Part shown: piece by piece, positions 1 through 25,398 of the stretch
How the letters are laid out: each line of letters opens with the position of its first letter
Numbering within the stretch: the first letter of the stretch is position 1
Assembly (NCBI GenBank): GCA_903848655.1
Contig: CAINGT010000076.1
Span: forward strand, 12,426 to 76,425
DNA length: 64,000 nucleotides
DNA from: an uncultured Sphingomonadales bacterium
GTDB lineage: Bacteria > Pseudomonadota > Alphaproteobacteria > Sphingomonadales > Sphingomonadaceae
Direction: 5' to 3'
Translations under genes and position numbers: made by a program
Notes under the pieces: generated by a model
What the model was told of the DNA's origin: nothing
Databases searched by the model: none
Seen by the model: the letters and a program-made list of their open reading frames with translations, nothing else

Positions 1-586
1 GCCGCCGCTTTTCGCCCATGAACGCGCCCAGCAGCCACAGCCGGGGATTGCGCCGGATCAGATCATCCGCTTCGCCATGCGCGCCGTGCTGGTCGGGATC
101 GGCGGGGCCTGCCACCAGCACTTCGGGGATGACCAGCCCCGCCAGCCGGGCCAAGACAATCGCATGACGGCCACGCCGGTCTTCGACCAGCGCAAAACCG
201 CCCGGCAAAATCGTGTGCAGCACGAGCACACCGCCATCGGTGCAGCGCACCAGCGCGGGCACATCGTGCGGCTGCAACCGGTCGGGCGACACCGCCAGCC
301 AATGCGCCAACAGCCCGACACGCGCCAAAGCTTCGGGCGCAAACGCCGGTGCCATCGCGCCATCGACGGCGGACAGCGCACCGACCAGATCGGCGGCGCT
401 TGCGGTGCGCCCCAGCGCCGCACACAACGCCGCCAGCCCGGCTGCCATGGTAAATGGCTCAAGCGGTCCGGCCATCGCCGCCGGTTCGGCTGGATCACCC
501 GCAAGCAACCGGTCACCGCCCGCGCGCAGCCAGCGGCCGATCAGCGTTTTTGCCCGTATGCGGGGATGGGATGGCGGTGTCTGCAT
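1..586 (-). CDS. Type I secretion ABC transporter permease/ATPase, N-terminal C39-like region (partial, runs off the window start)
   Basis: Hand translation of the minus strand from ATG at 586: MQTPPSHPRIRAK...MAAGLAALCAALGRTASAADLVGAL...APEALARVGLLAH...HDVPALVRCTDGGVLVL...RRNPRLWLLGAFMGEKRR. The frame is open to the edge, has a GAGG SD 8 nt upstream and an in-frame TAA at 614-616. It resembles the C39-like domain of HlyB/LapB-type exporters and neighbours hlyD. TM and ATPase domains lie outside the window. Confidence 0.72.
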   Translation of the reverse strand, partial: MQTPPSHPRIRAKTLIGRWLRAGGDRLLAGDPAEPAAMAGPLEPFTMAAGLAALCAALGRTASAADLVGALSAVDGAMAPAFAPEALARVGLLAHWLAVSPDRLQPHDVPALVRCTDGGVLVLHTILPGGFALVEDRRGRHAIVLARLAGLVIPEVLVAGPADPDQHGAHGEADDLIRRNPRLWLLGAFMGEKRR

Positions 587-594
587 CAATCGAG

Positions 595-609
595 CCTCGG
601 TTACCGAGG
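595..609. promoter_or_regulatory. Perfect inverted repeat CCTCGG-TTA-CCGAGG overlapping the SD of the ABC gene
   Basis: Seen directly. Function (operator or SD-sequestering hairpin) is inferred. Confidence 0.45.
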
Positions 610-765
610 ACGGTTAAGCATTGTTTGCGGTAATCTGGCGCTAAACCGGGCTAAGCGTTTGCCCATAGCGCGCGTCCAAGCAGTTGTGCACCACACGACC
701 CTAGTTTCCACCCGGTTCGGAGCCGGGGCCAATCGCGGCCCGCGCGTCTGTGGCCGAGGTATCGC

Positions 766-2172
766 ATGGTGTTCAATTTTGCCCGCGACCGCATCATTCG
801 CGCGATGGGCGGCGGCGGCCTGTTCGAGGACGTGTCCCCCGATGAAACGCAAGCGGCGTTCGCGGGCGCGCGTCCATTGGCGCATCAGCCGGTCGCCGGG
901 CTAACCCCGTGGAGCGCGCGCACCCGCACCGACCATCAGGGGCGAACTTTGCGTCTGCTGGCGCTGATGATCGGCGCGTTTCTGGTCTGGGCCAGCCTGT
1001 TCACGCTCGACAAAGTCACGCGCGGCAGCGGCCGGGTGCTGCCGGGGGTGCAAAACCAGATCGTGCAGCATCAGGAAGGCGGGATTATCCAGCAAATTCT
1101 GGTGCAAGAAGGCGCGCGCGTGCAGCAGGGCCAAGTCTTGATGCGCGTGGCGAATGTTACCACCGGCACCGAATTTGCCACCAGCCAGACCGATGTCTTG
1201 GCCAAACGCATTACGCTGGCGCGGCTCGATGCCGAAATTGCCGGGGCCGCTGCGTTCACTGTCCCGCCCGAACTTGCCAGCGCCGCGCCCGATATTGCGC
1301 GCGATGAAGAGGCGCTGTTCCGGTCCCGGCTGGCCCAGCGGCGGCAGGCTTCGGGCATTATCGGCGAACAGATGCGCCAGCATCAAGCCGAAGTCGCCTC
1401 GTTGCGCGCGCGGCTGATCAATCTGCGGACCGAAGAAAATCTGGGCCAGCAGCAATTGGCCAAGCTGGAACGCGCCTATCAGGAAGAGGCGATTTCCGAA
1501 CGCGAAGTGCTCGACAAACGCCAGGCGCTGGCCGCGTTGCGCACACGCATCGAGGATGTCGTCAACCAGATCCCGCAAAGCGCGGCGCAGATTTCCGAAG
1601 CGGGGGCACGACGCGGCGAAGTGTTCACGCGCGATATGGAAGATATCAAGGCCAAAGCCGCCATGGTGCGAATGGAACTGGCCAAAGCCGGCGAAACGCT
1701 CAACGCCGCGCGCGACAAGAACACGCGCGAAGAAATCCGCGCACCGCTTGGCGGCGTGGTCAACAAATTGTACCTGCAAACCATCGGCGGGGTGATCCGC
1801 CCGGGCGAACCGGTCGCGGAAATCGTGCCGGTGGACAAAGTGGTCACCATCGAAGTGCACATCGCCCCGCGTGATCGCGGCAATGTGTGGCCGGGACTGC
1901 CCGCGCGGGTCAAGATTTCGGCTTATGACTCGGCGGTTTATGGCGGGCTTGACGCCACCGTCAGCGATGTGTCCGCCGATGTCATCCAAGACCCGAAGGG
2001 CGACGCTTATTACCGCGTGCGGCTGCGCGCCGATACCCGCGATTTCGGCCCCAAGCGCCCGGTGATCCCCGGCATGACCGCCGAAGCCAATATCGTGTCG
2101 GGCAAACAGACCATCCTCGACTATATCCTTGGCCCACTGATCCGCATCCGCGACGCCGCCTTGCGCGAATGA
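766..2172 (+). CDS. HlyD-family type I secretion periplasmic adaptor (membrane fusion protein)
   Basis: Single TM near the N-terminus, then VTRGSGRVLP..QNQIVQHQEGGIIQQILVQEGARV, a long coiled coil, EIRAPLGGVVNKL...GGVIRPGEPVAEIVP, ARVKISAYD...YGGL, IPGMTAEANI..G..TILDYILGPL. GAGGT SD 5 nt before the ATG. Confidence 0.96.
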   Translation: MVFNFARDRIIRAMGGGGLFEDVSPDETQAAFAGARPLAHQPVAGLTPWSARTRTDHQGRTLRLLALMIGAFLVWASLFTLDKVTRGSGRVLPGVQNQIVQHQEGGIIQQILVQEGARVQQGQVLMRVANVTTGTEFATSQTDVLAKRITLARLDAEIAGAAAFTVPPELASAAPDIARDEEALFRSRLAQRRQASGIIGEQMRQHQAEVASLRARLINLRTEENLGQQQLAKLERAYQEEAISEREVLDKRQALAALRTRIEDVVNQIPQSAAQISEAGARRGEVFTRDMEDIKAKAAMVRMELAKAGETLNAARDKNTREEIRAPLGGVVNKLYLQTIGGVIRPGEPVAEIVPVDKVVTIEVHIAPRDRGNVWPGLPARVKISAYDSAVYGGLDATVSDVSADVIQDPKGDAYYRVRLRADTRDFGPKRPVIPGMTAEANIVSGKQTILDYILGPLIRIRDAALRE

Positions 2173-2184
2173 CGCTGCGGCGGG

Positions 2185-2215
2185 GCCAAGCCGCTGCATG
2201 GCCCGCAGGCTTGGC
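2185..2215 (+). terminator. GC-rich hairpin between hlyD and the SNF2 gene (GCCAAGCC...GGCTTGGC), no U-tract
   Basis: 8-bp perfect stem seen. Without a U-tract, terminator function is uncertain. Confidence 0.3.
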
Positions 2216-2247
2216 ATAGCGCGCCGGTTGGCATATCCGCTGGTGCG

Positions 2248-5200: not shown

Positions 5201-5616
5201 TCGACCGGATTTCCGCCGATCTGGCCGGGGCGGGCATTGCGCACGAACACTTGCGCGGATCGACACGTGATCGCGCCGCGCCGGTCCGCCGGTTTCAGGC
5301 GGGCGAAGTGCCGGTGATCCTGGTCAGCCTGAAGGCGGGCGGCGCGGGGGTCAACCTGACCGCCGCCGACACCGTGATCCTGTACGACCCGTGGTGGAAC
5401 CCGGCGGTCGAAGCCCAAGCCATCGACCGCGCGCACCGCATCGGCCAGACCCGCCCGGTGTTCGTCCACCGCATGATCGCCACCGGTACGATTGAAGAAA
5501 AAATCCTGACGCTGCAAGACCGCAAGAAAGACCTTGCCGACATGCTGTGGAGCGAAACCGGCACTGTGGCCGGAGCGGGACTGGATGATGCGGATATCGC
5601 GTTTCTGCTGGGGTGA
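2248..5616 (+). CDS. SWIM zinc finger plus SNF2/Swi2-family helicase-like ATPase
   Basis: SWIM motif CSCPVGYGCKH; helicase motifs LADDMGLGKT, LDEAH, SGTPIENRL, LRRTK, FSQF, SLKAGGAGVNLTAAD, DPWWNPAVEAQAIDRAHRIGQ. Confidence 0.95.
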   Translation: MIRAITDKMIRKLVRSDSMARAGLSYFRNGRVSFVQIDIETKTASARVRGSGSNRYHTAVDFADDELFPATDTVCSCPVGYGCKHVAALLYALEQELQEPPRLKIAAGTEAAGIVSRDVGDWLARARRERQNALIETLSVCFVIEPKRTVKPPPRAKAQAASPGPCAPARFLMQIRAFWTADKARQWRVLQYYELQSHLIPFDPLAARLVARMTPAAQGGDFTADKTPAGPYGWQWLGEAAAAGLLRWKQQQGRQVRVASEVLTATLEWQTGDDGHSWLALTGLPDHLTVFAHDPPAWYDEDAGVIGQIDTGIAPDLAARLLAMPPIAAIDIPQIADDWTAITGNAIAPPTLGDMVRIAQVTPKPVLRFMIDPVDVREAHYRWQPSAWKPKPQRIAHLEFDYAGHRIAAPAPLGNMIVNTDGVRARIARDLAAEQAAVDRLTHTALIPLALVDGIRVKPKQAWDHALAADSGTYPQMLVNEISVLAGEGWLIEYAPDWPHRLEPLDTPPPGLEINPGAGDPDALAPDGIDWFDVELPALVAGRRVDILPALRQVLASEGQALLDRDDDFQVALTLDAGRCTAVALGTVRPLLMALLRLALADRAGGTLRVNRYDLGTVHDLGGDGVGWTSADALRRLAAALHDPDQMDYTPPAALMADLRGYQRTGAGWLGALHGAGLGGILADDMGLGKTLQAIAHILWVRAGQTAPARQAVLVVAPTSVLPNWQAELARFAPTLDCLLWHGLDRRAQEGALAGADIVLTSYPLLARDKALLTAAHYDLVVLDEAHVLKNPATVGFKAAAALKSRQTIALSGTPIENRLNDIWALASLTNPGLLGGFDTFRKTYRTPIEKQGDQAARTALARRLRPFMLRRTKDQVATELPPKTLIPERIDLTEAQARLYESQRLLMNQRVRDEIRRVGLLRSQIIVLDAMLKLRQICCDPTLLPGGQGEGVASAKRARLLEMVPELIGEGRRVIVFSQFTAMLDRISADLAGAGIAHEHLRGSTRDRAAPVRRFQAGEVPVILVSLKAGGAGVNLTAADTVILYDPWWNPAVEAQAIDRAHRIGQTRPVFVHRMIATGTIEEKILTLQDRKKDLADMLWSETGTVAGAGLDDADIAFLLG

Positions 5617-5651
5617 GGCGGTTGAGGCAGATGACTTCAGAAAAGATATTG

Positions 5652-5673
5652 TTTTATTGCGATAAAATGCGCG
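5652..5673. repeat. AT-rich palindrome TTTTAT-TGCG-ATAAAA; possible degenerate arm of the CIR-type element
   Basis: The palindrome is seen directly. TTGCGATAAAATGCGCG (5657-5673) matches TTGCAATAAATCACGCG (36565-36581) at 13/17 positions. Confidence 0.4.
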
Positions 5674-5775: not shown

Positions 5776-5787
5776 TATTCTTTCCCC

Positions 5788-17700: not shown

Positions 17701-20700
17701 GCCCGCCGCTGATCCCGCATAGTCCGCCGTGTCGATCCCCGCGCCGCCGATCAGCGTATCGGCCCCTGTGCCGCCGTTCAGCACATCGTTGCCTGATCCA
17801 CCGTCAAGCACTTCGCTGCCCGCGCCGCCCAGCAGCGTATCATCGCCCGCGCCGCCGATCAGCGTGTCAGCCGCAGTCGTTCCAGTCAGCCGGTCATCGA
17901 AACTCGATCCGATCAAGACTTCGACACTGGCGATCTGATCGCCTTGTGCATCGCCGCCCTGGCTGATCGAGCCCTCCAGCCCAACGGTCACGCCTTGCAG
18001 CGATCCTGAATAATCGACCGTGTCGATCCCGTCGCCACCATCGAGGCGATCAGCCCCGCCGCCGCCGACCAGTGTGTCGTTGCCCGCATCGCCATACAAC
18101 GCATCATTGCCCCCGCCGCCGGTCAACGTGTCATCGCCACCCCCGCCATGCAGCGTCGCCGCCTGGCTACCCGCCCACAGCCGGTCAGCATAGGCCGAAC
18201 CGGTCAGGTTCTCGATTGATATCAGGGTATCGCCCTGGGCATCGCCGCCGCTCGCCGCCGACCCGTCCAGCCCCACTGCCACCGCCGCGCCCGAATCCGC
18301 ATAATCAACCGTATCAAGGCCGCTGCCGCCATCGACCACATCGGCCCCCGCACCGCCGCGCAGCGTGTCATCGCCCGCACCGCCGAGCAGCGTGTCACTG
18401 CCATCGCGCCCGATCAGCAGATCATCGCCTGCCCCGCCGTCGATCACATCGGCGCTGATGCCGCCTGCCAGCGTATCCGCACCGGCAGAGCCGATCAGTT
18501 GCTCGATATTGCGCAACACATCGCCTTGCGCGTCGCCGCCCAGTGCGGTCCCGGTGGCAAGGTCGATGTTGATCGGCGCCGCACTGGCCGAATAATCGGC
18601 AACATCCTGGCCCGCCCCGCCGTCAAGCGTATCGGCACCGGCACCGCCCACCAGCGTATCGTTGCCCGCCCCGCCTTCGAGCGATTCATTCGCGGCAGTG
18701 CCATACAAGCGGTCGTCATAGGCGCTGCCGATGACATGTTCGATCCCGGTCAACACATCGCCAGTGGCATCGCCGCCAAGGCTGGTACGGCCATCCAGCC
18801 AGACGCTGACCGCGCCGCTTGATGCGGTGTAATCGACGGTATCGAACCCCGCGCCGCCATCAATGCTGTCAGCCCCGGCTCCGCCAACCAACCGATCATC
18901 GTCGCTGCCGCCAATCAGTGTATCGGCACCCGCGCCGCCTGTCAGCGTGTCGTTGCCCGCCCCGCCTTCAAGCACTGCCGCCGTGCTGCCCGCCGACAGC
19001 GCATCGTCATAGGCCGATCCGATCAGCCGCTCGATCCCGGTCAGCACATCGCCTTGCGCATCGCCGCCCTGGCCGGCCGAACCATCGAGCGATACCGTCA
19101 CTGCATCGTCCGATGCGCTGTAATCGGCGGTGTCAAAGCCTGCTCCGCCGTCAAGCGTATCGGCACCCGCGCCGCCGATCAGCACGTCATCGCCGCTACC
19201 GCCTTGCAACAGATCGGCACCGGTACCGCCATCGAGCGTATCGTTTCCTGCCCCGCCGATCAGCGTGTCATCGGCGCCATTGCCAGCGAGATGGTCATCA
19301 CCCGCGCTGCCGTCGATCGTTTCAGCCGCTGCGGTGCCGGTCAGCGTGTCGTCATACAGCGATCCGATCAGGCGTTCGACCTGGGTGATGCGGTCGCCTT
19401 GCGCATCGCCGCCCTGGCCCGCGCTGCCTTCGAGGCCGATATTGACCGCATCGCTGCTCGCCAGATAGCTGACCGTATCCAGCCCTGCGCCGCCGTCGAT
19501 GGTATCGGCCCCTGCGCCGCCCAGCAGCGTATCGTTGCCATCGCCGCCGATCAGCACATCATTGCCCGCTGATCCGGTCAGGCTGTCATCGAATGCGGAC
19601 CCCACCACGCGTTCGACACCCGACAGGCTGTCACCTTCGGCATCGCCGCCCGAACCGCTGCCGGTGGCCAGATTGACACTGACGGCTGCACCCGATGCGC
19701 TGTAATCGGCAGTGTCGAACCCCGCGCCGCCGATCAGCGTATCGGCCCCGGCGCTGCCCATCAGCGTATCGTCACCCGCCCCGCCATTGAGGATATCGGC
19801 ATTGTCCGAACCATCGAGCACATCGGCGTAACTGGTGCCGATGATCCCCTCGATCGCGATGAACGTATCGCCTTCGGCATCGCCGCCGTGGTTGGCGCGG
19901 CCATCAAGCCCCGCGACGATGGCGGCGGTCGAAGCCGAATAATCGGCCAGATCAGTGCCTGAACCGCCATCGAGCACATCCGCGCCCGCGCCGCCCGCCA
20001 GTGTATCGTTGCCCGCGCCACCGGTCAGCGTGTCATCGCCCGCGCTGCCGGTCAGCCGGTCGGCAAACGCGGAACCCGTCAACTGCTCGATATGGACCAG
20101 CGTATCGCCTTGCGCATCGCCGCCTTCGCCCAGTGACCCGTCGAGTGCAACAACCACTGCGCTGCGCGACTGGCTGTAATCGGCGGTATCGATTCCCGCC
20201 CCACCGTCGAGGAAATCGGCCCCCGCGCCGCCAACCAAAGTGTCATCGCCCGCGCCACCCGCCAGCGCATTGTTGCCCGTATCGCCGGTCAGCGTGTCAT
20301 CGAACGCCGATCCGGTCAGCCCTTCGACAGCGATCAGCGTATCGCCTTCGGCATCGCCGCCATGCGCGGTGCCGGTGGCCAGATTGACGTTTACTGCCGC
20401 CGCCGACGTACTGTAATCGGCAATATCGGTGCCATCGCCGCCATCAAGGATATCCGCGCCCGCCCCGCCCGCCAGCGTATCGTTGCCCGCCCCGCCGCTT
20501 AACTGGTTGGCCCCGTTATCCCCGATCAGCACGTCATTGCGATCAGACCCGATGACATTTTCGATCAACTGATAGCTGTCGCCTTCGGCGGTTCCGCCGG
20601 CACCAGTGCCGGTGGCCAGGTTCACGGAAACCGCCAGCGCTGAATCGCTGTAGTCTGCGCTATCGGAGCCATCGCCGCCGATTAGCGTATCGGCCCCCAG

Positions 20701-23700
20701 CCCGCCGCGCAGCGTATCATCGCCCGCGCCGCCAGCGAGTTCGTTCGCCGCCGAATCGCCGATCAGGCGGTCGGCATAAGCGCTGCCGACCGCGCGCTCG
20801 ATGCCCAGCAGCACATCGCCTTCGGCAACATCGCCCGATGACGCCTGCCCATCGAGCCGCACCGTCACCGGGGCCTGGGCAGCCGAATAATCGGCGGAGT
20901 CAAAACCCGCCCCGCCCATCAGCGTATCGGCACCATAGCCCCCCGCCAGCGTATCATCGCCAGCGCCGCCGACCAGCAGATTGGCCCCGTCATTGCCGGT
21001 CAGGCTGTCGGCAAAGGCCGAGCCGGTCAGGTTTTCGATCCCCGCCAGCACATCGCCTTCGGCATCGCCGCCATGACCGGTGCTGCCATCAAGCGCGACT
21101 GCTACCCCGCTGGCCGAGCCGCGATAGTCGGCGGTATCGATCCCTGCGCTGCCAACGAGCGTGTCCGCCCCCGCGCCGCCGATCAGCGTATCATTGCCCG
21201 CCCCGCCATCGAGGCTGTCTGCGCTCGCGCTGCCGCTGATCAGATCGTCGTAGCCCGATCCGATAACATGTTCGACCAAAGTGATGACATCGCCTTGGGC
21301 ATCGCCGCCCCGGCTGACCCGGCCATCGAGAAAGACTTCGACCGCAGCGCTGGACGCGCTGTAATCGCCCGTATCAAACCCATCACCGCCATCGATAGTA
21401 TCGGCCCCGGCCCCGCCGACCAGCGTATCATCGCCGCCGCCGCCTGCCAGCGCATCATTGCCCGCCCCGCCGATCAGCGTATCGTTGAACGCCGATCCTG
21501 CCAGCCCTTCGATGCTGATGAAGCTATCGCCCAGCGCGTCGCCCGACTGCACCGTGCCGTCGAGCGAGACTGCCACGCCCGATGCCGCCCCGGCATAAGA
21601 GGCGGTATCAAAACCATCGCCGCCCTTGAGCACATCGGCCCCAGCGCCGCCTTCGAGCGTATCATCGCCCATGCCGCCGATCAGCGTTTCCGCAGCCCCT
21701 GCGCCGACCAGATGATCGGCAAAGGCGGTGCCGGTCAGATATTCGATATTGGCATATGTATCGCCTTCGGCATCGCCGCCGTGGCTGGTGCGGCCATCGA
21801 GGAACACTTCGACCCCGACCGGAGAGTCGGCAAAATCGACCGCATCGAGCCCTGCACCGCCGTCGATCTGGTCAGCGCCCGCGCCGCCCTTGATCGTGTC
21901 ATCGCCCGCGCTGCCCGTCAGCGTGTCGTCATGCGCCGATCCGATCAGCACTTCGATCCCCGACAGCACATCGCCTTCGCCATCGCCGCCATGGCCACCG
22001 CTGCCATCGAGCGCGACGTGCACGCCCGCCGCGCTGGTCGCATAGTTGGCGGTGTCGATCCCCGCACCGCCGATCAGCGTATCGGCCCCGCCGCCGCCGA
22101 TCAGCGTGTCATTGCCCGCGCCGCCATCGACCATGTCTGCCGCCGTGCTGCCCACCAGCAGATCGGCGCGCGCTGTGCCGATGGCGTGTTCGATATTGAC
22201 CAGCGTATCGCCTTCGGCGCTGCCGCCATGGCTCACGCTGCCATCGAGATGGATTTCGACGCCCGGCACCGTGCCCGCAGCGACCCCGGCGGGCACCGCC
22301 TGCCCATCAAACGCATGGGTGTAATCGACGGTATCGAACCCTGCGCCACCGTCGATATGATCGGCTCCAGCTCCCCCGTCGAACACGTTATCATGCGCAT
22401 CGCCGGTCAGCGTGTCGTTGAACGCCGATCCGGTAACATTCTGGATATTGGTATAAGTATCGCCTTGGGCAGAACCGCCGCTGCCTTTGCCCGCGCCCAG
22501 ATCGGCGCTGACGCCTTCGCCGGACAAGTCATAGACCACGGTATTGGTGCCGCTGCCGCCATCGATCTGGTCTGCGCCCGCGCCCGCGTGGATGGTGTCA
22601 TTGCCATCACCCGCCGCGATCACATTGCCCGGCGGGTTGGCGAACAGCACATAGACCGGATCGCCCGTGATCGTATCGGTTACGGTCATGTCGCTGGCGG
22701 AATTGACAACTTTGACGCCGAAATGGTTCGACACTTGGGTGGCAAATGTCGATGTGGTGCCATCGCCCGACAGGCCAAGCTGCACCGGAAGATAGAATTC
22801 CTTTTGAAACCCCGCTGCATTGGCAGCGGTTGCGGTCGAAGGCAAACTGTAGATCAACTGCACATCAAAGCTGAAAAAGCTCTCGCTGGCAGGCGCGGTC
22901 TTGACCGACGTAAGGCCGGTTGCCGGGTCGGTGACGGAGACCTCCGTCAGCTTGGTAATATTGCCTTGCGACACATCGACCAGCCAGCCATCGGCGGTGT
23001 GCGTGGCATTGGCAACGCTGTACCCATCGGGCAGCGACGGGATCAGGATCTTGAGCAGGCTCAGGTTCTTGGCCGGGACTTCGGCCACGACATGCAGCAA
23101 CCGGAACGTATCACCCGCCGGGGCATGCGCGGTGCTGTCGGCGTAGATCACATCGTCGCCACCGCTGCCGGTCAGCGTTTCCTTGGCCGACTGTGCGGCA
23201 AAGCTGGCGTCCTTTGATGAACCGGTGGCGCCGGTATCGCCCTTGATGACGGTCTGCCCGCCTTCGGTAGTGGTGGTCACGCCTTCGGAGTTGAACAGCG
23301 CATAGGTCAGCTTGGGCACCAGTTTGCCGATCCCGGCGGGGCCAAGCGCATCATCGGGGGCAGGGGTGACCGCGCGCGCCGAAATGACCCCTGCGGGAGA
23401 GGCGGGCGCGGACACGGTGCTGCTGATCTTCTCGGTCAGCGCTCGGCCGATTTCGTCGGCTTTGTGGCTGTTCGCTTCTTGCTGTTGCGCATCCGTCTGG
23501 GTCTGCGCGGAATCGGCGGGCTGCACCGCAGCGCTTTTGTCCGCAACATCGCCGGTCTGGGTGCCCGACGCCAGCTTCATCGAGATCGCGGTATCCTGCT
23601 CCTTGATCTCACCCACTTGCGCGACCAGATCTTCTGCGGTCAGCGTACGGTCGGTAAACATAATGGCTGGCTTGTGGCCCGAAAACGCGGCCAGCGCCAT

Positions 23701-23967
23701 GTTCGGCACGATGATCCGGCTGCCGTCGCCAAACACCAGCACCACATCGACGTCGATGATTTCGACCTTGAACGGCGCATAAGCCATGCCAAGACGCGCC
23801 TTGTCGGCACCATCCATCTGCACGACGGTGGCCAAGCCAGAGCCGAAACTGCCACCGGAATGGCTGGAATCAGCGGCTTCGTGCGGGTTCGAATCGACCG
23901 GGTTCGGCACCGCAGTGCGCGTGCGCGGCGTGGCTTTGCCCAGCTTTGACCGCGAAATCCGAACCAT
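5788..23967 (-). CDS. Giant RTX (hemolysin-type Ca2+-binding repeat) protein, 6059 aa; probable T1SS-secreted adhesin or surface protein
   Basis: Uninterrupted 18,180-nt ORF with very many GGxGxDxLx nonapeptides. These alternate with about 63 hand-counted modules of consensus GxDTADYSASxAAVxVxLDGxxGxGGDAxGDxLxxIExLxGS. No Sec signal; non-repetitive N-terminal ~450 aa and C-terminal ~120 aa. AAGGGG SD 6 nt before the ATG. T1SS genes are nearby. Confidence 0.95.
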   Translation of the reverse strand: MVRISRSKLGKATPRTRTAVPNPVDSNPHEAADSSHSGGSFGSGLATVVQMDGADKARLGMAYAPFKVEIIDVDVVLVFGDGSRIIVPNMALAAFSGHKPAIMFTDRTLTAEDLVAQVGEIKEQDTAISMKLASGTQTGDVADKSAAVQPADSAQTQTDAQQQEANSHKADEIGRALTEKISSTVSAPASPAGVISARAVTPAPDDALGPAGIGKLVPKLTYALFNSEGVTTTTEGGQTVIKGDTGATGSSKDASFAAQSAKETLTGSGGDDVIYADSTAHAPAGDTFRLLHVVAEVPAKNLSLLKILIPSLPDGYSVANATHTADGWLVDVSQGNITKLTEVSVTDPATGLTSVKTAPASESFFSFDVQLIYSLPSTATAANAAGFQKEFYLPVQLGLSGDGTTSTFATQVSNHFGVKVVNSASDMTVTDTITGDPVYVLFANPPGNVIAAGDGNDTIHAGAGADQIDGGSGTNTVVYDLSGEGVSADLGAGKGSGGSAQGDTYTNIQNVTGSAFNDTLTGDAHDNVFDGGAGADHIDGGAGFDTVDYTHAFDGQAVPAGVAAGTVPGVEIHLDGSVSHGGSAEGDTLVNIEHAIGTARADLLVGSTAADMVDGGAGNDTLIGGGGADTLIGGAGIDTANYATSAAGVHVALDGSGGHGGDGEGDVLSGIEVLIGSAHDDTLTGSAGDDTIKGGAGADQIDGGAGLDAVDFADSPVGVEVFLDGRTSHGGDAEGDTYANIEYLTGTAFADHLVGAGAAETLIGGMGDDTLEGGAGADVLKGGDGFDTASYAGAASGVAVSLDGTVQSGDALGDSFISIEGLAGSAFNDTLIGGAGNDALAGGGGDDTLVGGAGADTIDGGDGFDTGDYSASSAAVEVFLDGRVSRGGDAQGDVITLVEHVIGSGYDDLISGSASADSLDGGAGNDTLIGGAGADTLVGSAGIDTADYRGSASGVAVALDGSTGHGGDAEGDVLAGIENLTGSAFADSLTGNDGANLLVGGAGDDTLAGGYGADTLMGGAGFDSADYSAAQAPVTVRLDGQASSGDVAEGDVLLGIERAVGSAYADRLIGDSAANELAGGAGDDTLRGGLGADTLIGGDGSDSADYSDSALAVSVNLATGTGAGGTAEGDSYQLIENVIGSDRNDVLIGDNGANQLSGGAGNDTLAGGAGADILDGGDGTDIADYSTSAAAVNVNLATGTAHGGDAEGDTLIAVEGLTGSAFDDTLTGDTGNNALAGGAGDDTLVGGAGADFLDGGAGIDTADYSQSRSAVVVALDGSLGEGGDAQGDTLVHIEQLTGSAFADRLTGSAGDDTLTGGAGNDTLAGGAGADVLDGGSGTDLADYSASTAAIVAGLDGRANHGGDAEGDTFIAIEGIIGTSYADVLDGSDNADILNGGAGDDTLMGSAGADTLIGGAGFDTADYSASGAAVSVNLATGSGSGGDAEGDSLSGVERVVGSAFDDSLTGSAGNDVLIGGDGNDTLLGGAGADTIDGGAGLDTVSYLASSDAVNIGLEGSAGQGGDAQGDRITQVERLIGSLYDDTLTGTAAAETIDGSAGDDHLAGNGADDTLIGGAGNDTLDGGTGADLLQGGSGDDVLIGGAGADTLDGGAGFDTADYSASDDAVTVSLDGSAGQGGDAQGDVLTGIERLIGSAYDDALSAGSTAAVLEGGAGNDTLTGGAGADTLIGGSDDDRLVGGAGADSIDGGAGFDTVDYTASSGAVSVWLDGRTSLGGDATGDVLTGIEHVIGSAYDDRLYGTAANESLEGGAGNDTLVGGAGADTLDGGAGQDVADYSASAAPINIDLATGTALGGDAQGDVLRNIEQLIGSAGADTLAGGISADVIDGGAGDDLLIGRDGSDTLLGGAGDDTLRGGAGADVVDGGSGLDTVDYADSGAAVAVGLDGSAASGGDAQGDTLISIENLTGSAYADRLWAGSQAATLHGGGGDDTLTGGGGNDALYGDAGNDTLVGGGGADRLDGGDGIDTVDYSGSLQGVTVGLEGSISQGGDAQGDQIASVEVLIGSSFDDRLTGTTAADTLIGGAGDDTLLGGAGSEVLDGGSGNDVLNGGTGADTLIGGAGIDTADYAGSAAGVAVALDGSTGHGGDAQGDVLSGIEVLTGSALDDTLGGGTADDTLHGGAGNDLLLGSAGADVMDGGAGFDTVDYSASSAAVTVALDGSLGQGGDAQGDSLIGIEGAIGSAYDDRLTGSESTDLLSGGAGNDLLVGNGGNDTLLGGAGDDTLTGGGGADLLDGGAGIDTVDYSDSTAGVHVSVDGSTSTGGAAEGDQLLAIERLVGSAYDDGLAGTLANDTLTGGAGNDVLTGRGGADVLDGGAGFDTADYSDAGSGVAVSLATGLGTLGDAAGDQLISIEKLSGSAFADRLEGGADNDALDGGAGNDTLIGGGGIDTITGGAGDDSVIGSAGADLIDGGSGFDTIDYTASNVAVTVRLDGGASAGGDAEGDRLMAIEAVIGSAYDDRLIGTAADEALHGGSGDDTLIGGAGADTLDGGAGIDTADYGSAGAGVGLSLDSGGTAGDAAGDGFISIEIVRGSSFADTLAGGANDDEIHGGAGNDLVSGGAGADSLFGDAGNDTLAGGAGADTLDGGAGIDTADYSASGAAVIAGLDGSTGAGGDAQGDVLVNIDAITGSAFADVLTGSSAADILDGGAGNDTLFGGAGSDSLYGGTGDDLIIGGAGGDSIDGGAGKDTVSYAGSLDGVNVHLDGTPNAGGDAQGDVLIAIEGVIGSALADTITGGPSDDTIDGGAGDDWIAGGAGNDTLLGGAGTDTLLGGAGADVIDGGAGTDTASYANATSGVAVDLSGAAGMAGDALGDQLTNIENLIGSDYADTLGGGAGAEAILAGGGDDLILGSAGADTLDGGSGVNTVSYAASASAVAAYLDGRLGLGGDAAGDQLVQIQHVIGSAFNDTLVGGGSGSTLEGGAGDDVVQGGAGADSLAGGSGNDTIVSSEGSDTIDGGSGTDTADYANSNTGVQIALDGSAGSGGTAQGDVISNVEHLIGSNYADVLGGGSGAEWIEGGTGNDTLLGSAGADTLDGGAGTNTADYSASSAAVQVSLDGSAGAGGDAAGDVLMNISRLTGSAFDDRLGGGSGNDVLDGGAGNDTLFGSAGSDTLIGGAGFDTADYSGSASGVTVALDGTIGGSGDASGDQLSGIEAITGSRFADALGGSMGDDSLAGGAGNDTLTGGLGNDTLAGGTGNDLLIGGAGADGIDGGSGFDTVDYSASGAAVAVDLVHGTGSGGDAQGDVLSAIEWVVGSDYNDTLIASDAASELDGGTGDDRLTGGAGADTLSGGAGNDTLIGSGGADLLDGGAGIDTVDYSASGAGVQVILDGSAASGGDAAGDQAISIEHLTGSAFNDILTGGSGSETLDGGAGDDLLTGNGGSDALNGGAGNDTLVGGTGGDTLDGGAGTDTADYSTSAAAVSVDLSTGTGSGGDAQGDTLTGIERVIGSALDDALTGSAGDDTLSGGAGDDTLAGGAGNDVLTGGSGDDVLIGGGGADTLTGGNGNDTVTYATSAAGVTAYLDGTAGIGGDAAGDVISGVERLTGSDYADRLLGAAGAEVLDGGAGDDTLAGSAGADTLIGGTGFDTVDYAGSTSAINVYTDGSVSQGGQAAGDTLDGIERVIGTAYADTLHGSDADESLEAGAGNDQIFGGAGADTLLGGAGDDTLQGGAGADVIDGGTGFDSATYADSSAGVNAGLDGAANSGGDAAGDTLIAIEAITGSGFADTLRGGTGSETLDGGAGDDMLVGSAGADVLIGGLGTDSVDYRGSDAAVSIALDGSAGTGGYAAGDRLSGIERLIGSAFADTLTGSTGDDALDGGAGNDSLTGGLGNDTLTGGADNDTLIGGSGADALDGGAGIDTADYSASLVGVNVNLNGQLSSGGDAEGDLLTSIEVVIGSGNADSFRAGTANDTLTGGAGNDTVYGGAGVDVIDGGSGTDTADYSAATGGVTIALDGSAGSGAEAQGDTLASIERLIGSSYNDALAGSTGDDELIGGDGNDLLTGGAGNDTLTGGTGNDTLIGGTGADRIDGGSGIDSADYTASTAAVTVYLDGTAGSGGDAQGDTLSNIEQLTGSAFDDRLNGSNLAETIRGGAGNDTVSGGGGDDALYGDAGNDTLIGGLGADTLDGGAGFNTADYATSLGGVTVYLDGTPGIGGDAAGDVLVNIQGVIGSSLDDVVYGSAGADSVFGGAGNDTIYGSAGADTLTGGAGIDTVDYSASSAGFALALDGSAGVGGDAAGDVVTGIERVIGTAFADTITGTAASETLEGGAGNDVLSGGGGTDSLSGGAGDDTLVGGAYAETLDGGSGVNTADFSGAASAIAVRMDGIASISSNAAGTVLTNIAVLIGSGYDDTLSGTANADTIAGGAGSDALTGGAGSDSLDGGAGNDTLIGGSGADTLVGGSGTDLADYSASGAGVSVWLNGTAGIGGDAAGDVLSGIEAIKGSAFADVLNGFTGADLLLGMDGNDTLLGSAGADTLDGGAGIDTLDYSASSASIAVDLSTGLGSGGDAAGDVISAIEVLIGSAFADTLAGSSSADTLIGGAGDDWLSGAGGADSLSGGAGNDTLIGGTGADSIDGGAGTDTVDYSASGAGVTVYLDGVTESYGGDATGDIVSTIERVIGSAYADMLVGTAAAEYLSGGAGNDTLIGGAGADTLDGGAGTDAASYANAGAAVAVSLASGSGSAGDAAGDALIGIEHVIGSDYNDTLSGGASADTLSGGLGDDTFNPGSGADVIIGGGGNDVVTYAAAALGVIVALDGSPGSGDIAQGDQLTGITRLIGSAYADQFTGSYTDDVLDGGAGDDTLIGAAGNDTLTGGTGNDLLRGGAGADSMDGGAGTDTVSYADSSVGITLNLATGLASGGDAQGDTFAQIEKFVGSSGADAMIAGASAANFDGYDGNDTLTGGAGNDSLAGGNGNDTLIGGGGADALDGGAGYDTADYSASAAAVYVRTGGTSTGGDAQGDTMTGIEAVIGSAYDDTFAGSAADESFAGGAGNDTFLSSGGADTFDGGAGFDIVDYSGSASVGMTIYMDGGFGLGGDAAGDRLYAIEEVIGSAQADAIRAASAGSLIYGGGGDDVLTGNIGNDTLYGDAGNDSFNTGLGADQVDGGAGNDLVNYGASNAGVNIGTDGSVGIGGWAAGDTLTNVETIFGSVYDDTLRGAATFGSTLYGQGGNDYFVSVAGADTIDGGTGTDMVDYSASAAGVKAYLTGIVGVGGDAAGDVLTNVERLTGSAYNDSLTGTAGNDSLYGGAGNDTLVGGAGADYLDGGAGFDTVDYSASGGVTVYLDGTPGIASDASGDVLVNIEAIIGSSFADVVYGSGNADSISAGVGNDTIYASLGADTIDGGLGTDMLDFTAATSGIGLNLPSPGLSSGGAAGEVVTNFENFNLSKYDDTFVGTAASEFIFANDGNDLVNGGAGNDSIQGGNGNDTLIGGAGADTMDGGAGTDVVDFSSSSAGVQIYLDNRVVNAGGDGAGDVFYNVENAIGSNYADFIGGTAGNNYLSGGAGNDTLMGLAGADTLDGGAGINTAVYGYALTGVAVNLATGTGTAGDAAGDVFINIQNVSGGTFNDTLIGDANANYIDGSTGDDSLMGGAGNDTLLGGAGNDTLEGGAGADSLDGGVGSNALSYTNAGSAIAVSLLAGTGTVGDAAGDILSNFIGVQGSAYDDTIIGGATNCYLTGNAGNDSLVGGAGADSIYGGVGNDTLIGGAGGDSLDGGNGTDTADYSASSAGVSIDLSPVSGIGTGNFGDASGDTLQNIENITGSAYNDTITGSSAANVLTGGAGNDWFQGGLGADTLNGGAGTDTADYSDSTAGVTVYLDGTVGVGGSAAGDVLTTIEAINGSAFADKLVGTTTADSLAGGAGNDTLIGGLGSDTMDGGTGADTIDYSGAASAIALTLNGAGTGSGTLGEASGDVLTGIEAVIGSGYADQFTLTLGNGWSVEGGAGFDTVKLATASGTVTQAQLTGVLTHVEDIDFTATATAANLTISSSFIQSIVGAGNASALTVNFNGDDTISVAGGSFYTHPGADYVFYSDATLTTQIAKLTVA

Positions 23968-24064
23968 CTGTTACCCCTTGGGCCTGTGCAACAGTGGTTT
24001 ATGGCGCACGAACGGTTACAACGCGGCCTCTCGCAGATTGGGTGTTTCCACGTATCGCCTGATG

Positions 24065-24135
24065 CGCGGGGATTGAACCTGAATCAGACTATCGACGCCT
24101 TGTTTTTGCGTGATTTATCGCAAGGATCCGGTATC
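24065..24135 (-). repeat. Degenerate copy of the CIR-type element in the RTX/GT4 divergent promoter region
   Basis: TGTTTTTGCGTGATTTATCGCAA (24101-24123) equals the reverse complement of 36565-36587 at 21/23 positions. In both places it is followed, in register, by 4 nt and CCGGT. GAATC lies at 24081-24085. Confidence 0.65.
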
Positions 24136-24162
24136 CGCCCCTTCACAGCCCGAGACCCCGTC

Positions 24163-25398
24163 ATGCCCGTGCCCCCGTGCGATATTCTGTTCATCCACCA
24201 GAACATGCCGGGCCAGTTCCGCTATCTGGCCCCGGTGTTTGCCGCGTCGCCCGATTTTCGCATCACATTCCTGACGCGGCGCGAAGGCGTCGATCTCGAT
24301 CGCGTCCGCACCGTCCGTTACCCTGCGCCTGAAGAAAAGCGCGAAACCAGCGACGCGCTGCTTGCGCCGGTTGAAAAAGTGCTGCGATTTGGCCGCGCGG
24401 TGCTGACCGCCGGGCTGGAATTGCGCGCCCAAGGCTATCGCCCGCGCCTGATAATCGTCCATCCCGGGTGGGGCGAGGGGCTATTCTTGCGCGATATCTG
24501 GCCCGAAGCCCGGATCGTGACATATGGCGAATACTATTACCGCGCCGATGGCGGCGATATCGGGTTTGACCCGCTGTTCCCCGTGACCGCGCAAGGGCTG
24601 GCACGATCCCGCATGATGAACACGCATCTGCTGCTGGCGCACGAACAGGCGGACCGCGTGCTGTGCCCGACCCATTGGCAAAAACAGCGCCACCCGGCAT
24701 TTTTGCAAGCCAAGACCGATGTGATCTTTGACGGCATCGACACCACCCGCGCGCGCCCCAATCCCGCCGCGCGCGTTGCGCTCGATAATGGTCCGGTGCT
24801 GACCGTGACCGACGAAGTGATTACATATGTCGCCCGCAATCTGGAACCGCATCGCGGCTTTCACGTGGTTATGCACGCTTTGCCCGCGCTGCTGGCGGCG
24901 CGGCCGCGCGCGCACGTCGTCATCGTGGGTGGCGAAAATGTCAGCTACAGCCCGGCGGCTCGCGCGCCCCACGCCAGTTGGAAAGCGCAATTGCTGGGCG
25001 AAATCGATCTGGGTGCTCAGGCGGCGCGGGTGCATTTCGTCGGCCAACTGCCCTATCAGGTGTATCTCGATCTGCTCGCGATCTCGTCAGTGCACCTCTA
25101 CCTGACTTATCCGTTCGTGCTGTCGTGGAGCTGTTTGGAGGCAATGGCCGCCGGTTGCCTGATGGTTGCGTCCGACACCGGCCCGGTGCGCGAAGTCATC
25201 AGCCATGGCGAAAACGGGCTGCTGTTCCCGTTTTTCGACCGCGCCGCGCTGGTTGAAACGGTCTGCACCGCGCTTGATGATCGGGCGCTGGATACTCGGC
25301 TGCGCGCCAACGCGCGCGAAACCGTGCTGACCCGCTATGACTTGCGCGCGTGCCTCGCCGCGCAAGCAAAGCTGATCGAGCGGATGTTAAGGCCCTGA
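24163..25398 (+). CDS. Glycosyltransferase family 4 (Glyco_trans_4_3-like N-domain), cytoplasmic
   Basis: ILFIHQNMPGQF, HPGWGEGLFLRDIWPEAR...YGEYYY...GDIGFDPLFP, ITYVARNLEPHRGF, and the GT-B signature YLTYPFVLSWSCLEAMAAGC..VASDTGPVREVI. Start reassigned from 23986 to ATG 24163. No signal peptide. Confidence 0.92.
   Translation: MPVPPCDILFIHQNMPGQFRYLAPVFAASPDFRITFLTRREGVDLDRVRTVRYPAPEEKRETSDALLAPVEKVLRFGRAVLTAGLELRAQGYRPRLIIVHPGWGEGLFLRDIWPEARIVTYGEYYYRADGGDIGFDPLFPVTAQGLARSRMMNTHLLLAHEQADRVLCPTHWQKQRHPAFLQAKTDVIFDGIDTTRARPNPAARVALDNGPVLTVTDEVITYVARNLEPHRGFHVVMHALPALLAARPRAHVVIVGGENVSYSPAARAPHASWKAQLLGEIDLGAQAARVHFVGQLPYQVYLDLLAISSVHLYLTYPFVLSWSCLEAMAAGCLMVASDTGPVREVISHGENGLLFPFFDRAALVETVCTALDDRALDTRLRANARETVLTRYDLRACLAAQAKLIERMLRP

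What the first reader, a model, noticed from the sequence alone, without database searches (positions are those of the whole stretch)
1..25398. Candidate system: T1SS, 6059-aa RTX protein and a dedicated cytoplasmic GT4 (a possibly glycosylated giant surface protein)
Seen: an ABC exporter N-terminus, HlyD, a giant RTX gene and a signal-less GT4 sit together. The GT4 and RTX genes are transcribed from one ~195-bp divergent region. Established: T1SS substrates go from cytoplasm to exterior unfolded, so any modification must be cytoplasmic. RTX/T1SS/glycosyltransferase couplings are known in Sinorhizobium exp (wge/wgd) and Synechococcus swm loci. Sphingomonads use glycosphingolipids instead of LPS, so the LPS-anchored RsaA model cannot apply directly. 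Inference: the GT4 decorates the Ser/Thr-rich giant protein or makes its surface anchor, giving a glycosylated fibrillar adhesin or coat that I do not know to be described in this group.
Basis: partly seen in the sequence, partly recalled or inferred. Interest (0 to 1): 0.85.

Follow-up and report, generated by a model that had tools for sequence, protein, structure and literature searches.

The report
Giant RTX protein with ExpC-like glycosyltransferase
A freshwater Novosphingobium-like bacterium encodes a 6059-residue calcium-binding repeat (RTX) protein, its type I secretion machine and one cytoplasmic sugar-adding enzyme; relatives of that enzyme sit next to such secretion systems in many bacteria, so the two probably work together, but whether the sugar goes onto the protein itself is untested.

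Summary
The window carries an ABC exporter N-terminus (2-586, -), HlyD (766-2172, +), a 6059-aa RTX gene (5788-23967, -) and a signal-less GT4 (24163-25398, +) across a 195-bp divergent gap.

Left of the window the same contig holds the rest of the ABC gene, MotB-like, MotA-like and PilZ genes, and TolC, so the T1SS is complete.

- 35 of 80 species with a GT relative have RTX and/or ABC+HlyD genes within 10 kb.
- All but one of the Novosphingobium orthologues examined keep a giant surface-protein gene beside the GT despite rearrangement.
- Several beta- and gammaproteobacteria have ABC-HlyD-GT-RTX operons.

The GT is 40% identical to the gene at the ExpC/WgcA position of the Sinorhizobium meliloti galactoglucan cluster, next to ExpD1/ExpD2/ExpE1. 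Unlike that cluster, this window has no other polysaccharide gene.

Functional coupling is well supported. Direct cytoplasmic glycosylation of the RTX protein is the most economical reading but is only inferred. Synthesis of a partner glycan is a serious rival.

Verdict: a new variant of a known kind, of moderate to high interest.

The parts
2..586 (-). N-terminal 195 residues of the T1SS ABC permease/ATPase. The gene runs off the left edge; the full protein is 750 aa on the same contig (L001 7569-9821).
   Evidence: Translation. TIGR03375 LssB-type at E 2.4e-6 for the fragment. Full protein: 580 bits, plus PF00664 and PF00005.
587..765 (.). 179-bp divergent intergenic region between the ABC operon (minus strand) and HlyD (plus strand).
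   Evidence: Gene coordinates. The same divergent ABC/HlyD layout occurs in the 76% relative L085.
766..2172 (+). HlyD-family T1SS periplasmic adaptor (membrane fusion protein), 468 aa.
   Evidence: TIGR01843 at 341 bits (cutoff 209), PF13437. Public gene call identical.
5788..6117 (-). C-terminal ~110 residues of the giant protein. This is a non-RTX tail ending ...QIAKLTVA, the presumed T1SS secretion signal region.
   Evidence: Sequence. Conserved at 48-59% in the Novosphingobium orthologues L004 and L005 and similar in L087. Its function as a signal is inferred.
6118..22617 (-). RTX module array of about 60 modules of 79 or 97 aa (237/291 nt). Each module is 3-5 nonapeptides plus a ~45-aa spacer. 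Consensus: GGAGNDTLxGGAGADTLxGGAGxDTADYSASxAAVxVxLDGSxGxGGDAxGDxLxxIExxxGSAxADxLxG.
   Evidence: 195 GG.G.D motifs and module lengths. Consensus. DNA periods of 237/291 nt at 60-79% identity. PF00353.
22618..23967 (-). Lineage-specific N-terminal ~450 residues of the giant protein. It has a conserved beta-rich block at aa ~50-125, an acidic/Gln-rich linker, and a second conserved region at aa ~195-450.
   Evidence: Only 13 homologues, the only named one from Novosphingobium. No Pfam or NCBIfam adhesin or retention-module hit. AF2 pLDDT 44.8.
23968..24162 (.). 195-bp divergent intergenic region between the RTX gene and the GT gene.
   Evidence: Sequence. No sigma-70-like site and no Rfam match. 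Only the ~100 nt next to the RTX start are conserved with L085 and L003.
24163..25398 (+). Cytoplasmic GT4 (GT-B, retaining-type fold) glycosyltransferase, 411 aa, of the ExpC/WgcA-like family (PF12000 + PF00534).
   Evidence: Pfam. AF2 pLDDT 94.9 and Foldseek top hits to GT4 enzymes. 40% identity to the S. meliloti pSymB gene at the ExpC position. Synteny with T1SS/RTX genes.

Best explanation
This is a stand-alone 'T1SS + giant RTX substrate + ExpC-like GT4' module in a freshwater Novosphingobium-like bacterium.

**Shown**
- A complete T1SS is present: an LssB/HlyB-like ABC with an N-terminal extension, a HlyD adaptor and a TolC. MotB-like, MotA-like and PilZ genes sit inside the same operon.
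- It lies beside a 6059-aa protein that is almost entirely RTX modules with a conserved non-RTX C-terminal tail.
- A soluble GT4 is transcribed divergently from that gene.
- Relatives of this GT are linked to T1SS/RTX genes across Alpha-, Beta- and Gammaproteobacteria.

**Inferred**
- The giant protein is made in the cytoplasm, where RTX repeats are unfolded because free calcium is low.
- It is exported C-terminus first through ABC-HlyD-TolC.
- It folds into a long beta-roll fibre outside the cell.
- The GT acts on it before export, adding sugar from a nucleotide sugar to Ser/Thr in or next to the RTX modules. The conserved DYSAS, GS and NDT positions are candidates.

The product would be a glycosylated surface or secreted fibre. 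The PilZ protein suggests control by c-di-GMP. I put functional coupling of the GT with the RTX/T1SS module at about 0.8. The confidence given in this field is for the fuller statement that includes direct glycosylation of the protein.
For: **The T1SS is complete.**

**Orthologue-level synteny survives rearrangement.**
- L085 (76%): RTX of 7267 aa, divergent GT, then TolC-PilZ-MotA-like-MotB-like-ABC, then HlyD.
- L003 (72%): the same core.
- L004 and L005 (60% and 59%) and N. flavum L087 (69%, RTX of 9100 aa): GT convergent with the RTX gene, 31-62 bp apart.

**Family-level linkage.**
- 35 of 80 species loci have RTX and/or ABC+HlyD within 10 kb. That is 10 of 29 loci with full flanks and 25 of 51 truncated ones.
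- Same-strand ABC-HlyD-GT(-RTX) arrangements with 14-50 bp gaps occur in Chromobacterium, Aquipseudomonas, Methylobacterium and three MAGs.
- Linked loci are scattered over most major branches of the GT tree.
- Annotated records agree: Polaromonas JS666 ABC-HlyD-TolC-GT, with the GT overlapping TolC by 4 bp; Methylobacterium aquaticum, a 2565-aa T1SS-target protein divergent from the GT; Phaeobacter, Pseudosulfitobacter, Phyllobacterium and S. meliloti.

**Evidence for the protein as acceptor.**
- No other polysaccharide gene lies in the 64-kb window or in the 10 kb to its left.
- Minimal operons contain only ABC, HlyD, GT and RTX.
- Where RTX is absent, the GT can sit next to other giant or large surface proteins. 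Examples are autotransporter-like proteins of 7422 and 2064 aa in N. sediminicola, an SdrD_B-repeat protein in Accumulibacter, and an fn3/PKD protein.
- The presumed acceptor (N-terminal) domain is 40% identical across distant hosts, including the Novosphingobium clade. By textbook knowledge sphingomonads lack LPS, which argues against an LPS acceptor.
- Glycosylated RTX proteins exist: SwmA and oscillin (PMC3034196).
Against: - There is no direct evidence of protein glycosylation.
- The structure is a generic GT4, closest to enzymes that act on small molecules or lipid-linked sugars (MshA, BshA, PglA, PimA, SPS). It has no special likeness to protein O-glycosyltransferases.
- The best-studied homologue, S. 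meliloti ExpC, is assigned as a galactosyltransferase of galactoglucan synthesis (PMC1403797; bioRxiv 10.64898/2026.08.21.746188).
- Several relatives sit among polysaccharide genes (Phaeobacter, Polaromonas, Bradyrhizobium) or next to waaC (Ralstonia).
- About half of the loci with full flanks show no T1SS or RTX within 10 kb.
- I ran no matched control family for the enrichment. The base rate of 0.4-2% per 20 kb is my own estimate.
- In this window the T1SS and the RTX gene are separated by an unrelated helicase gene, so the pairing of exporter and substrate is inferred from relatives.
Confidence: 0.45

Rival explanations
1. The GT does not touch the protein. It makes or extends a glycan (exopolysaccharide, glycolipid or surface oligosaccharide) that works together with the RTX protein. 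The glycan could be its surface receptor or anchor, as with Caulobacter RsaA on its O-antigen. Or it could be a polymer whose production or export depends on the T1SS and its RTX substrate, as with S. meliloti galactoglucan, ExpD1/ExpD2 and ExpE1.
For: - The GT is 40% identical to the S. meliloti gene at the ExpC position, which lies beside ExpG, ExpD1, ExpD2 and ExpE1.
- Relatives in Phaeobacter, Phyllobacterium, Polaromonas and Bradyrhizobium sit with pyruvyl transferases, further GTs and rfb genes.
- The fold resembles GT4 enzymes that act on sugar or lipid acceptors.
Against: - The window and its 10-kb left flank hold no priming transferase, flippase, polymerase, nucleotide-sugar gene or second GT apart from the peptidoglycan genes mraY and murG.
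- The minimal ABC-HlyD-GT-RTX operons also lack them.
- One single-domain GT4 normally adds one sugar.
- The acceptor domain is conserved between the LPS-less Novosphingobium clade and LPS-bearing beta- and gammaproteobacteria, which argues against a host-specific envelope glycan.
- The ExpC assignment rests on homology, not on an enzyme assay.
Confidence: 0.35
2. The adjacency is not functional in this genome. The GT serves an unrelated pathway, such as core oligosaccharide or glycolipid synthesis, and merely neighbours the giant gene.
For: - In Ralstonia solanacearum OE1-1 the homologue lies next to waaC, with no T1SS within 10 kb.
- In Azospirillum brasilense Sp7 p5 and in the Roseomonas and Bradyrhizobium chromosomal loci no T1SS or RTX is nearby.
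- No shared promoter element or RNA motif was found in the divergent region.
Against: - The pair is kept in all but one of the Novosphingobium orthologue contexts examined, in three different orientations. That pattern is what selection for linkage produces.
- Same-operon arrangements exist in distant classes.
- 44% linkage is far above my estimated chance rate.
Confidence: 0.12
3. The MotA-like and MotB-like genes and the SNF2 helicase around the T1SS form a Zorya-like anti-phage system, and the 'T1SS locus' is a mixture of unrelated systems.
For: - The helicase domain hits DpdE and ZorD models strongly (PADLOC, 560 and 346 bits).
- The 560-aa and 238-aa proteins hit ZorA and ZorB weakly (E 3e-7 and 2e-3).
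Against: - The MotB-like, MotA-like and PilZ genes lie between ABC and TolC in one operon. They are kept there in the 76% relative, which has no helicase at all.
- The gene order (B before A) and the absence of ZorC do not fit Zorya.
- The helicase matches cover only the generic SNF2 core.
- Only 2 of 80 GT loci hold a helicase homologue.
Confidence: 0.03

Closest known systems
Sinorhizobium meliloti galactoglucan (EPS II) exp/wg cluster: ExpC (WgcA), ExpG (WggR), ExpD1/ExpD2 (WgdA/WgdB) and ExpE1 (WgeA)
   Same: - The GT is homologous: 40% identity over 98% of its length.
- It lies next to a T1SS ABC plus HlyD adaptor and an RTX calcium-binding substrate.
- Genetics there tie the T1SS and its RTX substrate to a glycan product (PMC1403797).
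   Different: - ExpE1 is 219 aa; the protein here is 6059 aa.
- The ABC there is the short PrtD type; here it has an N-terminal extension and is LssB/HlyB-like.
- The exp cluster has about 25 genes, with further GTs, pyruvyl transferases, a methyltransferase and rml genes. Here the GT is the only such gene.
- There is no MarR regulator here. MotA/MotB-like and PilZ genes are present instead.
- I identified the pSymB gene as ExpC from gene order and the literature, not from a named annotation.
Giant RTX adhesins with LapB/C/E-type T1SS (Pseudomonas LapA, Marinomonas MpIBP, Salmonella SiiE, Vibrio FrhA)
   Same: - A megadalton-class repetitive T1SS substrate with C-terminal RTX repeats and signal.
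- An ABC exporter with an N-terminal extension, plus a HlyD adaptor and TolC.
- A hint of c-di-GMP control (PilZ).

The comparison rests on my own knowledge of these systems.
   Different: - The body of the protein is RTX modules throughout, not Ig-like repeats.
- There was no hit to any retention-module or adhesin N-terminal family in NCBIfam.
- No LapG protease or LapD receptor lies in the locus.
- As far as I know, an accessory glycosyltransferase is not part of those systems.
Glycosylated cyanobacterial RTX surface proteins (Synechococcus SwmA/SwmB, Phormidium oscillin)
   Same: - These are RTX proteins reported as glycosylated, forming S-layers or fibrils (PMC3034196).
- In Synechococcus the genomic island that holds swmA also holds a glycosyltransferase, and SwmB is a giant protein (PMC7522525).
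   Different: - The hosts are cyanobacteria and the function is motility.
- The responsible transferase is not defined, and I did not test whether it belongs to the ExpC-like family.
- The one cyanobacterial GT relative in my set (L081) has no RTX gene within 10 kb.
Cytoplasmic glycosylation of adhesins before export (GtfA/GtfB on serine-rich repeat proteins with accessory Sec; HMW1C on HMW1; Aah/TibC on AIDA-I/TibA; flagellin glycosyltransferases)
   Same: - The logic is the same: a soluble transferase encoded next to a large secreted protein modifies it in the cytoplasm before an export route that takes unfolded chains.
- GtfA is also a GT4.

The comparison rests on my own knowledge of these systems.
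   Different: - The secretion routes differ.
- The model shows no specific structural or sequence likeness to these enzymes.
- Glycosylation here is unproven.
Caulobacter crescentus RsaA S-layer with RsaD/E/F T1SS and neighbouring O-antigen genes; Campylobacter fetus sapCDEF
   Same: - An RTX surface protein exported by a T1SS, with glycan genes nearby that make its anchor.
- SapC-family genes occur in several GT-linked T1SS loci.
   Different: - Sphingomonads lack LPS (textbook knowledge).
- There is a single GT here, not an O-antigen pathway.
- The protein is some six times larger than RsaA.

Membership tests
Type I secretion system | ABC permease/ATPase with fused transmembrane and nucleotide-binding domains | tested here: met
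   PF00664 and PF00005. TIGR03375 at 580 bits, below its 693-bit cutoff, so LssB-like rather than a certified member. The window holds its first 195 aa.
Type I secretion system | HlyD-family periplasmic adaptor | tested here: met
   TIGR01843 at 341 bits, cutoff 209.
Type I secretion system | TolC-family outer membrane channel | tested here: met
   TIGR01844 at 245 bits, cutoff 225. PF02321 in two copies. Located on the same contig left of the window.
RTX protein family | Tandem GGxGxDxUx calcium-binding nonapeptides | tested here: met
   195 GG.G.D motifs. PF00353 at E 1e-61 in the last 704 aa and 1e-33 in the first 700 aa.
RTX protein family | Uncleaved C-terminal secretion signal recognised by the T1SS | tested here: inconclusive
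   A non-RTX C-terminal ~110 aa is conserved among orthologues and ends in a hydrophobic tail. No model or assay for signal function was available.
LapA-like RTX adhesins | N-terminal retention module, with LapG protease and LapD receptor | tested here: not met
   No retention-module or adhesin N-terminal family among the NCBIfam hits (E <= 0.01) and no Pfam domain in the first 450 aa. No LapG- or LapD-like gene in the locus or 10 kb either side. The N-terminal model was too poor to judge the fold.
Glycosyltransferase family 4 (GT-B, retaining) | Two Rossmann-like domains, a GT1/GT4 C-terminal nucleotide-sugar domain and conserved Glu/Arg motif residues | tested here: met
   PF00534 (E 1e-21) and PF12000 (E 3e-51). 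AF2 pLDDT 94.9. Foldseek top hits are GT4 enzymes, E about 1e-20, TM up to 0.78. E326, E344 and R231/G232 are invariant in 56 homologues. Catalytic activity itself was not tested.
ExpC/WgcA-like GT4 (S. meliloti galactoglucan cluster) | Full-length homology to ExpC and location beside a T1SS ABC/adaptor and an RTX protein | tested here: met
   40% identity over residues 8-408. Synteny. The identity of the pSymB gene as ExpC is inferred from gene order (MarR regulator, then GT, divergent from the ABC) and from PMC1403797.
ExpC/WgcA-like GT4 (S. meliloti galactoglucan cluster) | Embedded in a polysaccharide biosynthesis cluster (further GTs, pyruvyl transferases, rml genes) | tested here: not met
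   None of these lie in the 64-kb window or its 10-kb left flank.
Protein O-glycosyltransferases acting on secreted adhesins (GtfA, HMW1C, BAHT) | Specific sequence or structure relation to a known protein glycosyltransferase, or demonstrated protein acceptor | tested here: not met
   None of these appears among the listed sequence or fold matches. The acceptor cannot be tested with these tools.
Zorya anti-phage system | zorA-zorB with zorC/zorD (type I) or zorE (type II), in that order | tested here: not met
   Only weak ZorA/ZorB hits. The gene order is reversed, there is no ZorC, and the pair is embedded between ABC and TolC. The helicase is absent from the close relative.

The most novel reading that the evidence does not exclude
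ExpC-like GT4 enzymes (PF12000 + PF00534) may be a widespread, unrecognised family of cytoplasmic protein glycosyltransferases dedicated to T1SS substrates. They would add sugars to RTX repeats while these are still unfolded in the low-calcium cytoplasm, so that many RTX 'calcium-binding proteins' leave the cell as glycoproteins. If so, the long-unexplained need for ExpD1/ExpD2/ExpE1 in S. meliloti galactoglucan production could reflect a glycosylated or glycan-priming RTX protein. The transferase behind glycosylated cyanobacterial RTX proteins could then be sought among relatives of this family.
Probability: 0.3. Interest if true: 0.85.

Novelty: new variant of a known kind. Interest (0 to 1): 0.6.

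Why it matters
The only well-established dedicated modification of T1SS substrates is acylation of RTX toxins. Glycosylated RTX proteins are known only as scattered observations (SwmA, oscillin), with no enzyme assigned.

A conserved transferase family sitting inside or beside T1SS operons in hundreds of species would make 'T1SS-coupled glycosylation' directly testable. Several hosts can be cultured, for example S. meliloti, Phaeobacter inhibens, Methylobacterium aquaticum and Chromobacterium.

It would also bear on two open points:
- why the S. meliloti T1SS and ExpE1 are needed for galactoglucan;
- how LPS-less sphingomonads display giant surface proteins.

If the rival is right, the finding still defines a minimal three-part module (GT, T1SS, RTX protein) shared with the exp cluster. 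That would be useful for dissecting that system.

Tried and rejected
- **Sequence and fold search of the GT against solved structures.** Only generic GT4 matches. This says nothing about the acceptor.
- **N-terminal 450 aa of the giant protein.** Only 13 narrow homologues. The AF2 model has pLDDT 44.8, so I ran no fold search and can make no statement on a retention or plug domain.
- **Rfam scan of the whole window.** No match, so no c-di-GMP riboswitch or other known RNA ahead of the giant gene.
- **Promoter scan and three-way alignment of the divergent region.** No sigma-70-like site. Only the RTX-proximal ~100 nt are conserved.
- **Public sequencing runs.** Only pond-metagenome DNA and no RNA, so co-transcription could not be examined.
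- **Spacer module of the RTX repeats as a shared acceptor motif.** It is found in the Novosphingobium orthologues and a few others, but not in most distant GT-linked RTX proteins. A common acceptor, if any, would have to be the nonapeptide region itself.
- **Zorya/Dpd reading of the helicase and MotA/MotB-like genes.** Rejected; see the rival explanations.
- **Literature searches for a described link between this GT family and T1SS.** Nothing found beyond the exp cluster and the cyanobacterial glycoproteins.
- **One lookup failed.** The ORF start was wrong, so I annotated the right half of the window with Pfam instead.
- **Becker et al. 1997.** The library does not hold it.

Full report
**What is in the sequence**

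The left 25 kb of the window holds the following genes.
- The first 195 codons of an ABC exporter, on the minus strand at 2-586, running off the edge.
- A HlyD-family adaptor at 766-2172 (+), divergent from the ABC gene (TIGR01843, 341 bits).
- An uninterrupted 6059-codon ORF at 5788-23967 (-).
- After a 195-bp divergent gap, a 411-aa glycosyltransferase at 24163-25398 (+), with PF12000 and PF00534.
- A 784-aa membrane and coiled-coil protein with no family match.

The same contig is present in a public lake/pond metagenome assembly. There the DNA left of the window completes the ABC gene (750 aa). It continues in one minus-strand operon with four more genes:
- a 238-aa MotB/OmpA-like protein;
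- a 560-aa MotA/ExbB-like protein with a coiled-coil tail;
- a 112-aa PilZ protein;
- a TolC (TIGR01844, 245 bits).

**The giant protein**

Its composition is G 22%, A 14%, D 13%, with S+T 16.9%. It has three parts.
- A lineage-specific N-terminal ~450 aa.
- About 60 modules of 79 or 97 aa, which differ by two nonapeptides. The module consensus is GGAGNDTLxGGAGADTLxGGAGxDTADYSASxAAVxVxLDGSxGxGGDAxGDxLxxIExxxGSAxADxLxG.
- A conserved non-RTX tail of ~110 aa ending in LTVA.

There are 195 GG.G.D motifs. At the DNA level the 237- and 291-nt units are only 60-79% identical. The array is therefore old and the assembly is believable.

The N-terminal region has only 13 homologues; the only named one is from Novosphingobium. 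It matches no retention-module or adhesin N-terminal family, and its predicted structure is unusable (pLDDT 44.8). I therefore cannot say whether the protein is retained on the cell like LapA or released.

**The transferase**

The AF2 model is confident (pLDDT 94.9). It is a soluble two-domain GT-B enzyme, and its nearest solved relatives are GT4 enzymes such as MshA, sucrose-phosphate synthase, PglA, BshA and PimA, at 15-21% identity. The residues expected for catalysis are invariant in 56 homologues. Nothing in the sequence or fold identifies the acceptor.

More than 598 species in the genome collection encode a relative of the GT. I examined the best 80 loci, at 42-72% identity.
- 35 have an RTX ORF and/or an ABC plus HlyD pair within 10 kb: 10 of 29 loci with full flanks and 25 of 51 truncated ones. 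Contigs tend to break at RTX genes, which fits the higher rate among truncated loci.
- I estimate chance at roughly 0.4-2% per 20 kb, but I ran no matched control.

The arrangement matters more than the count.

In the close relatives:
- L085 (76%) and L003 (72%) have the GT between the giant RTX gene and the TolC-PilZ-MotA-like-MotB-like-ABC operon.
- L004, L005 and N. flavum have the GT convergent with RTX genes of at least 3300 to 9100 aa.

In distant relatives:
- Chromobacterium, Aquipseudomonas, Methylobacterium and several MAGs have same-strand ABC-HlyD-GT(-RTX) arrangements with gaps of 14-50 bp.
- Undibacterium, Accumulibacter and Bradyrhizobium have GT-ABC-HlyD.

Linked loci are spread over most major branches of the GT tree. 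Annotated plasmid records give the same picture for Polaromonas JS666, Methylobacterium aquaticum, Phaeobacter inhibens, Pseudosulfitobacter and Phyllobacterium.

Linkage is frequent but not universal. Ralstonia (next to waaC), Azospirillum brasilense Sp7 p5, a Bradyrhizobium plasmid and the Roseomonas clade show none.

**The known relative**

The plasmid search also hit Sinorhizobium meliloti pSymB. The matching gene is 40% identical over 98% of its length. It follows a MarR regulator and is divergent from an ABC exporter, a HlyD adaptor and a 219-aa calcium-binding protein. Further GTs, pyruvyl transferases and rfb genes lie around it.

This is the galactoglucan exp cluster, and by its position the gene is ExpC (WgcA). 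Its neighbours are ExpG, ExpD1, ExpD2 and ExpE1. In that system the following is reported.
- ExpC is listed among the glycosyltransferases of EPS II synthesis.
- ExpE1 is secreted by ExpD1/ExpD2.

**What differs here**

The whole window to the right of the GT is housekeeping:
- a sensor kinase, citrate synthase, glutamyl-tRNA synthetase and ComEC;
- glnA, argC and ccmB;
- the dcw cell-wall cluster.

The 10 kb to the left adds nothing glycan-related. The GT is the only glycan gene that is not part of peptidoglycan synthesis. The minimal operons in other classes are equally bare.

Where RTX is absent, the GT can sit next to other giant or large surface proteins:
- autotransporter-like proteins in N. 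sediminicola;
- an SdrD_B-repeat protein in Accumulibacter;
- an fn3/PKD protein.

The presumed acceptor domain is 40% identical between distant hosts, including the Novosphingobium clade. Sphingomonads lack LPS by textbook knowledge.

These points favour a conserved acceptor that travels with the secreted protein. The simplest candidate is the protein itself, which is unfolded in the low-calcium cytoplasm. This is inference. The rival, that the GT builds a partner glycan as is assumed for ExpC, is not excluded. I give it 0.35 against 0.45 for direct glycosylation.

**Other systems considered**

The helicase is absent from the compact locus of the 76% relative, and homologues occur in only 2 of 80 GT loci. 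It is an unrelated insertion. Its strong DpdE and ZorD hits cover only the SNF2 core. The MotA/MotB-like pair and PilZ are conserved inside the T1SS operon. They are more likely accessory parts of this secretion system than a Zorya system.

**Novelty and verdict**

Glycosylated RTX proteins are known (SwmA, oscillin; PMC3034196), and so is a T1SS/RTX/GT cluster (exp). I found no paper that treats this GT family as a T1SS partner, and none that describes such a module in sphingomonads.

The finding is a real, non-chance association, and it is a new variant of a known kind. Its mechanism remains to be shown by simple experiments in culturable carriers.

Noticed in passing
window 2248-5616 (+): A 1122-aa SWIM zinc-finger plus SNF2 helicase sits between HlyD and the giant RTX gene. 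It hits PADLOC DpdE and ZorD models strongly, but only over the helicase core. It is missing from the compact locus of the 76% relative (L085), so it looks like an unrelated insertion, possibly a lone defence-type helicase.
   Followed up: partly
L001 4760-7550 (-), same contig just left of the window; also L085 12916-15752 and L003 6412-6947: Three genes lie inside the T1SS operon between ABC and TolC: a MotB/OmpA-like protein (238 aa), a MotA/ExbB-like protein with a long coiled coil (560 aa), and a PilZ protein (112 aa). They are conserved in close relatives. A stator-like pair and a c-di-GMP reader inside a T1SS operon were not described in the papers I could search. They may control release or retention of the giant protein.
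   Followed up: partly
window 25406-27760 (-) and 27896-29982 (+): A 784-aa protein with two predicted membrane helices and a long Ala-rich coiled coil is followed by proteins of 402 and 293 aa and a sensor kinase. None of the first three has any Pfam, NCBIfam or PADLOC match. The 784-aa protein, the only one of them searched for, has no counterpart in the 80 GT loci.
   Followed up: partly
L088 1-9489 (Novosphingobium sediminicola): Here the GT orthologue (62%) lies next to two giant autotransporter-like proteins (7422 and 2064 aa). The one seen whole has a signal peptide; both have a C-terminal barrel-like ending, 20-24% Ser+Thr and no RTX repeats. No T1SS substrate is present. This hints that the enzyme follows giant surface proteins rather than one secretion route.
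   Followed up: partly
L059 3113-7975, L046, L018, L042, L025, L012, L011: In Undibacterium and several alphaproteobacterial or planctomycete loci the GT plus T1SS is accompanied by a SapC-family protein, SEC-C/TPR-methyltransferase fusions, TPR proteins and a TPR plus GT9-like protein. This looks like a larger modification island for a T1SS substrate.
   Followed up: partly
L086 841-9930: Public gene calls place five plus-strand 'genes' without any domain on the antisense strand of the giant RTX gene. The minus strand is one open frame of 3282 codons with 104 RTX motifs. This is an annotation artefact typical of GC-rich repeat genes.
   Followed up: yes
L003-L082 as a set: Loci cut short by contig ends are linked to RTX genes more often (25 of 51) than loci with full flanks (10 of 29). 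Assemblies break at RTX repeats, so short-read genomes undercount this kind of linkage.
   Followed up: partly
window 50510-63955 (+): An ordinary dcw cell-division and cell-wall cluster (mraW, ftsI, murE, murF, mraY, murD, ftsW, murG, murC). The locus is therefore in core chromosome, not on an island or plasmid.
   Followed up: yes
L093 8164-11230 (Ralstonia solanacearum OE1-1 megaplasmid): The GT homologue (45%) lies directly after waaC (LPS heptosyltransferase I) and near T6SS effector genes, with no T1SS nearby. This is the clearest counter-example to a protein-only role for the family.
   Followed up: no
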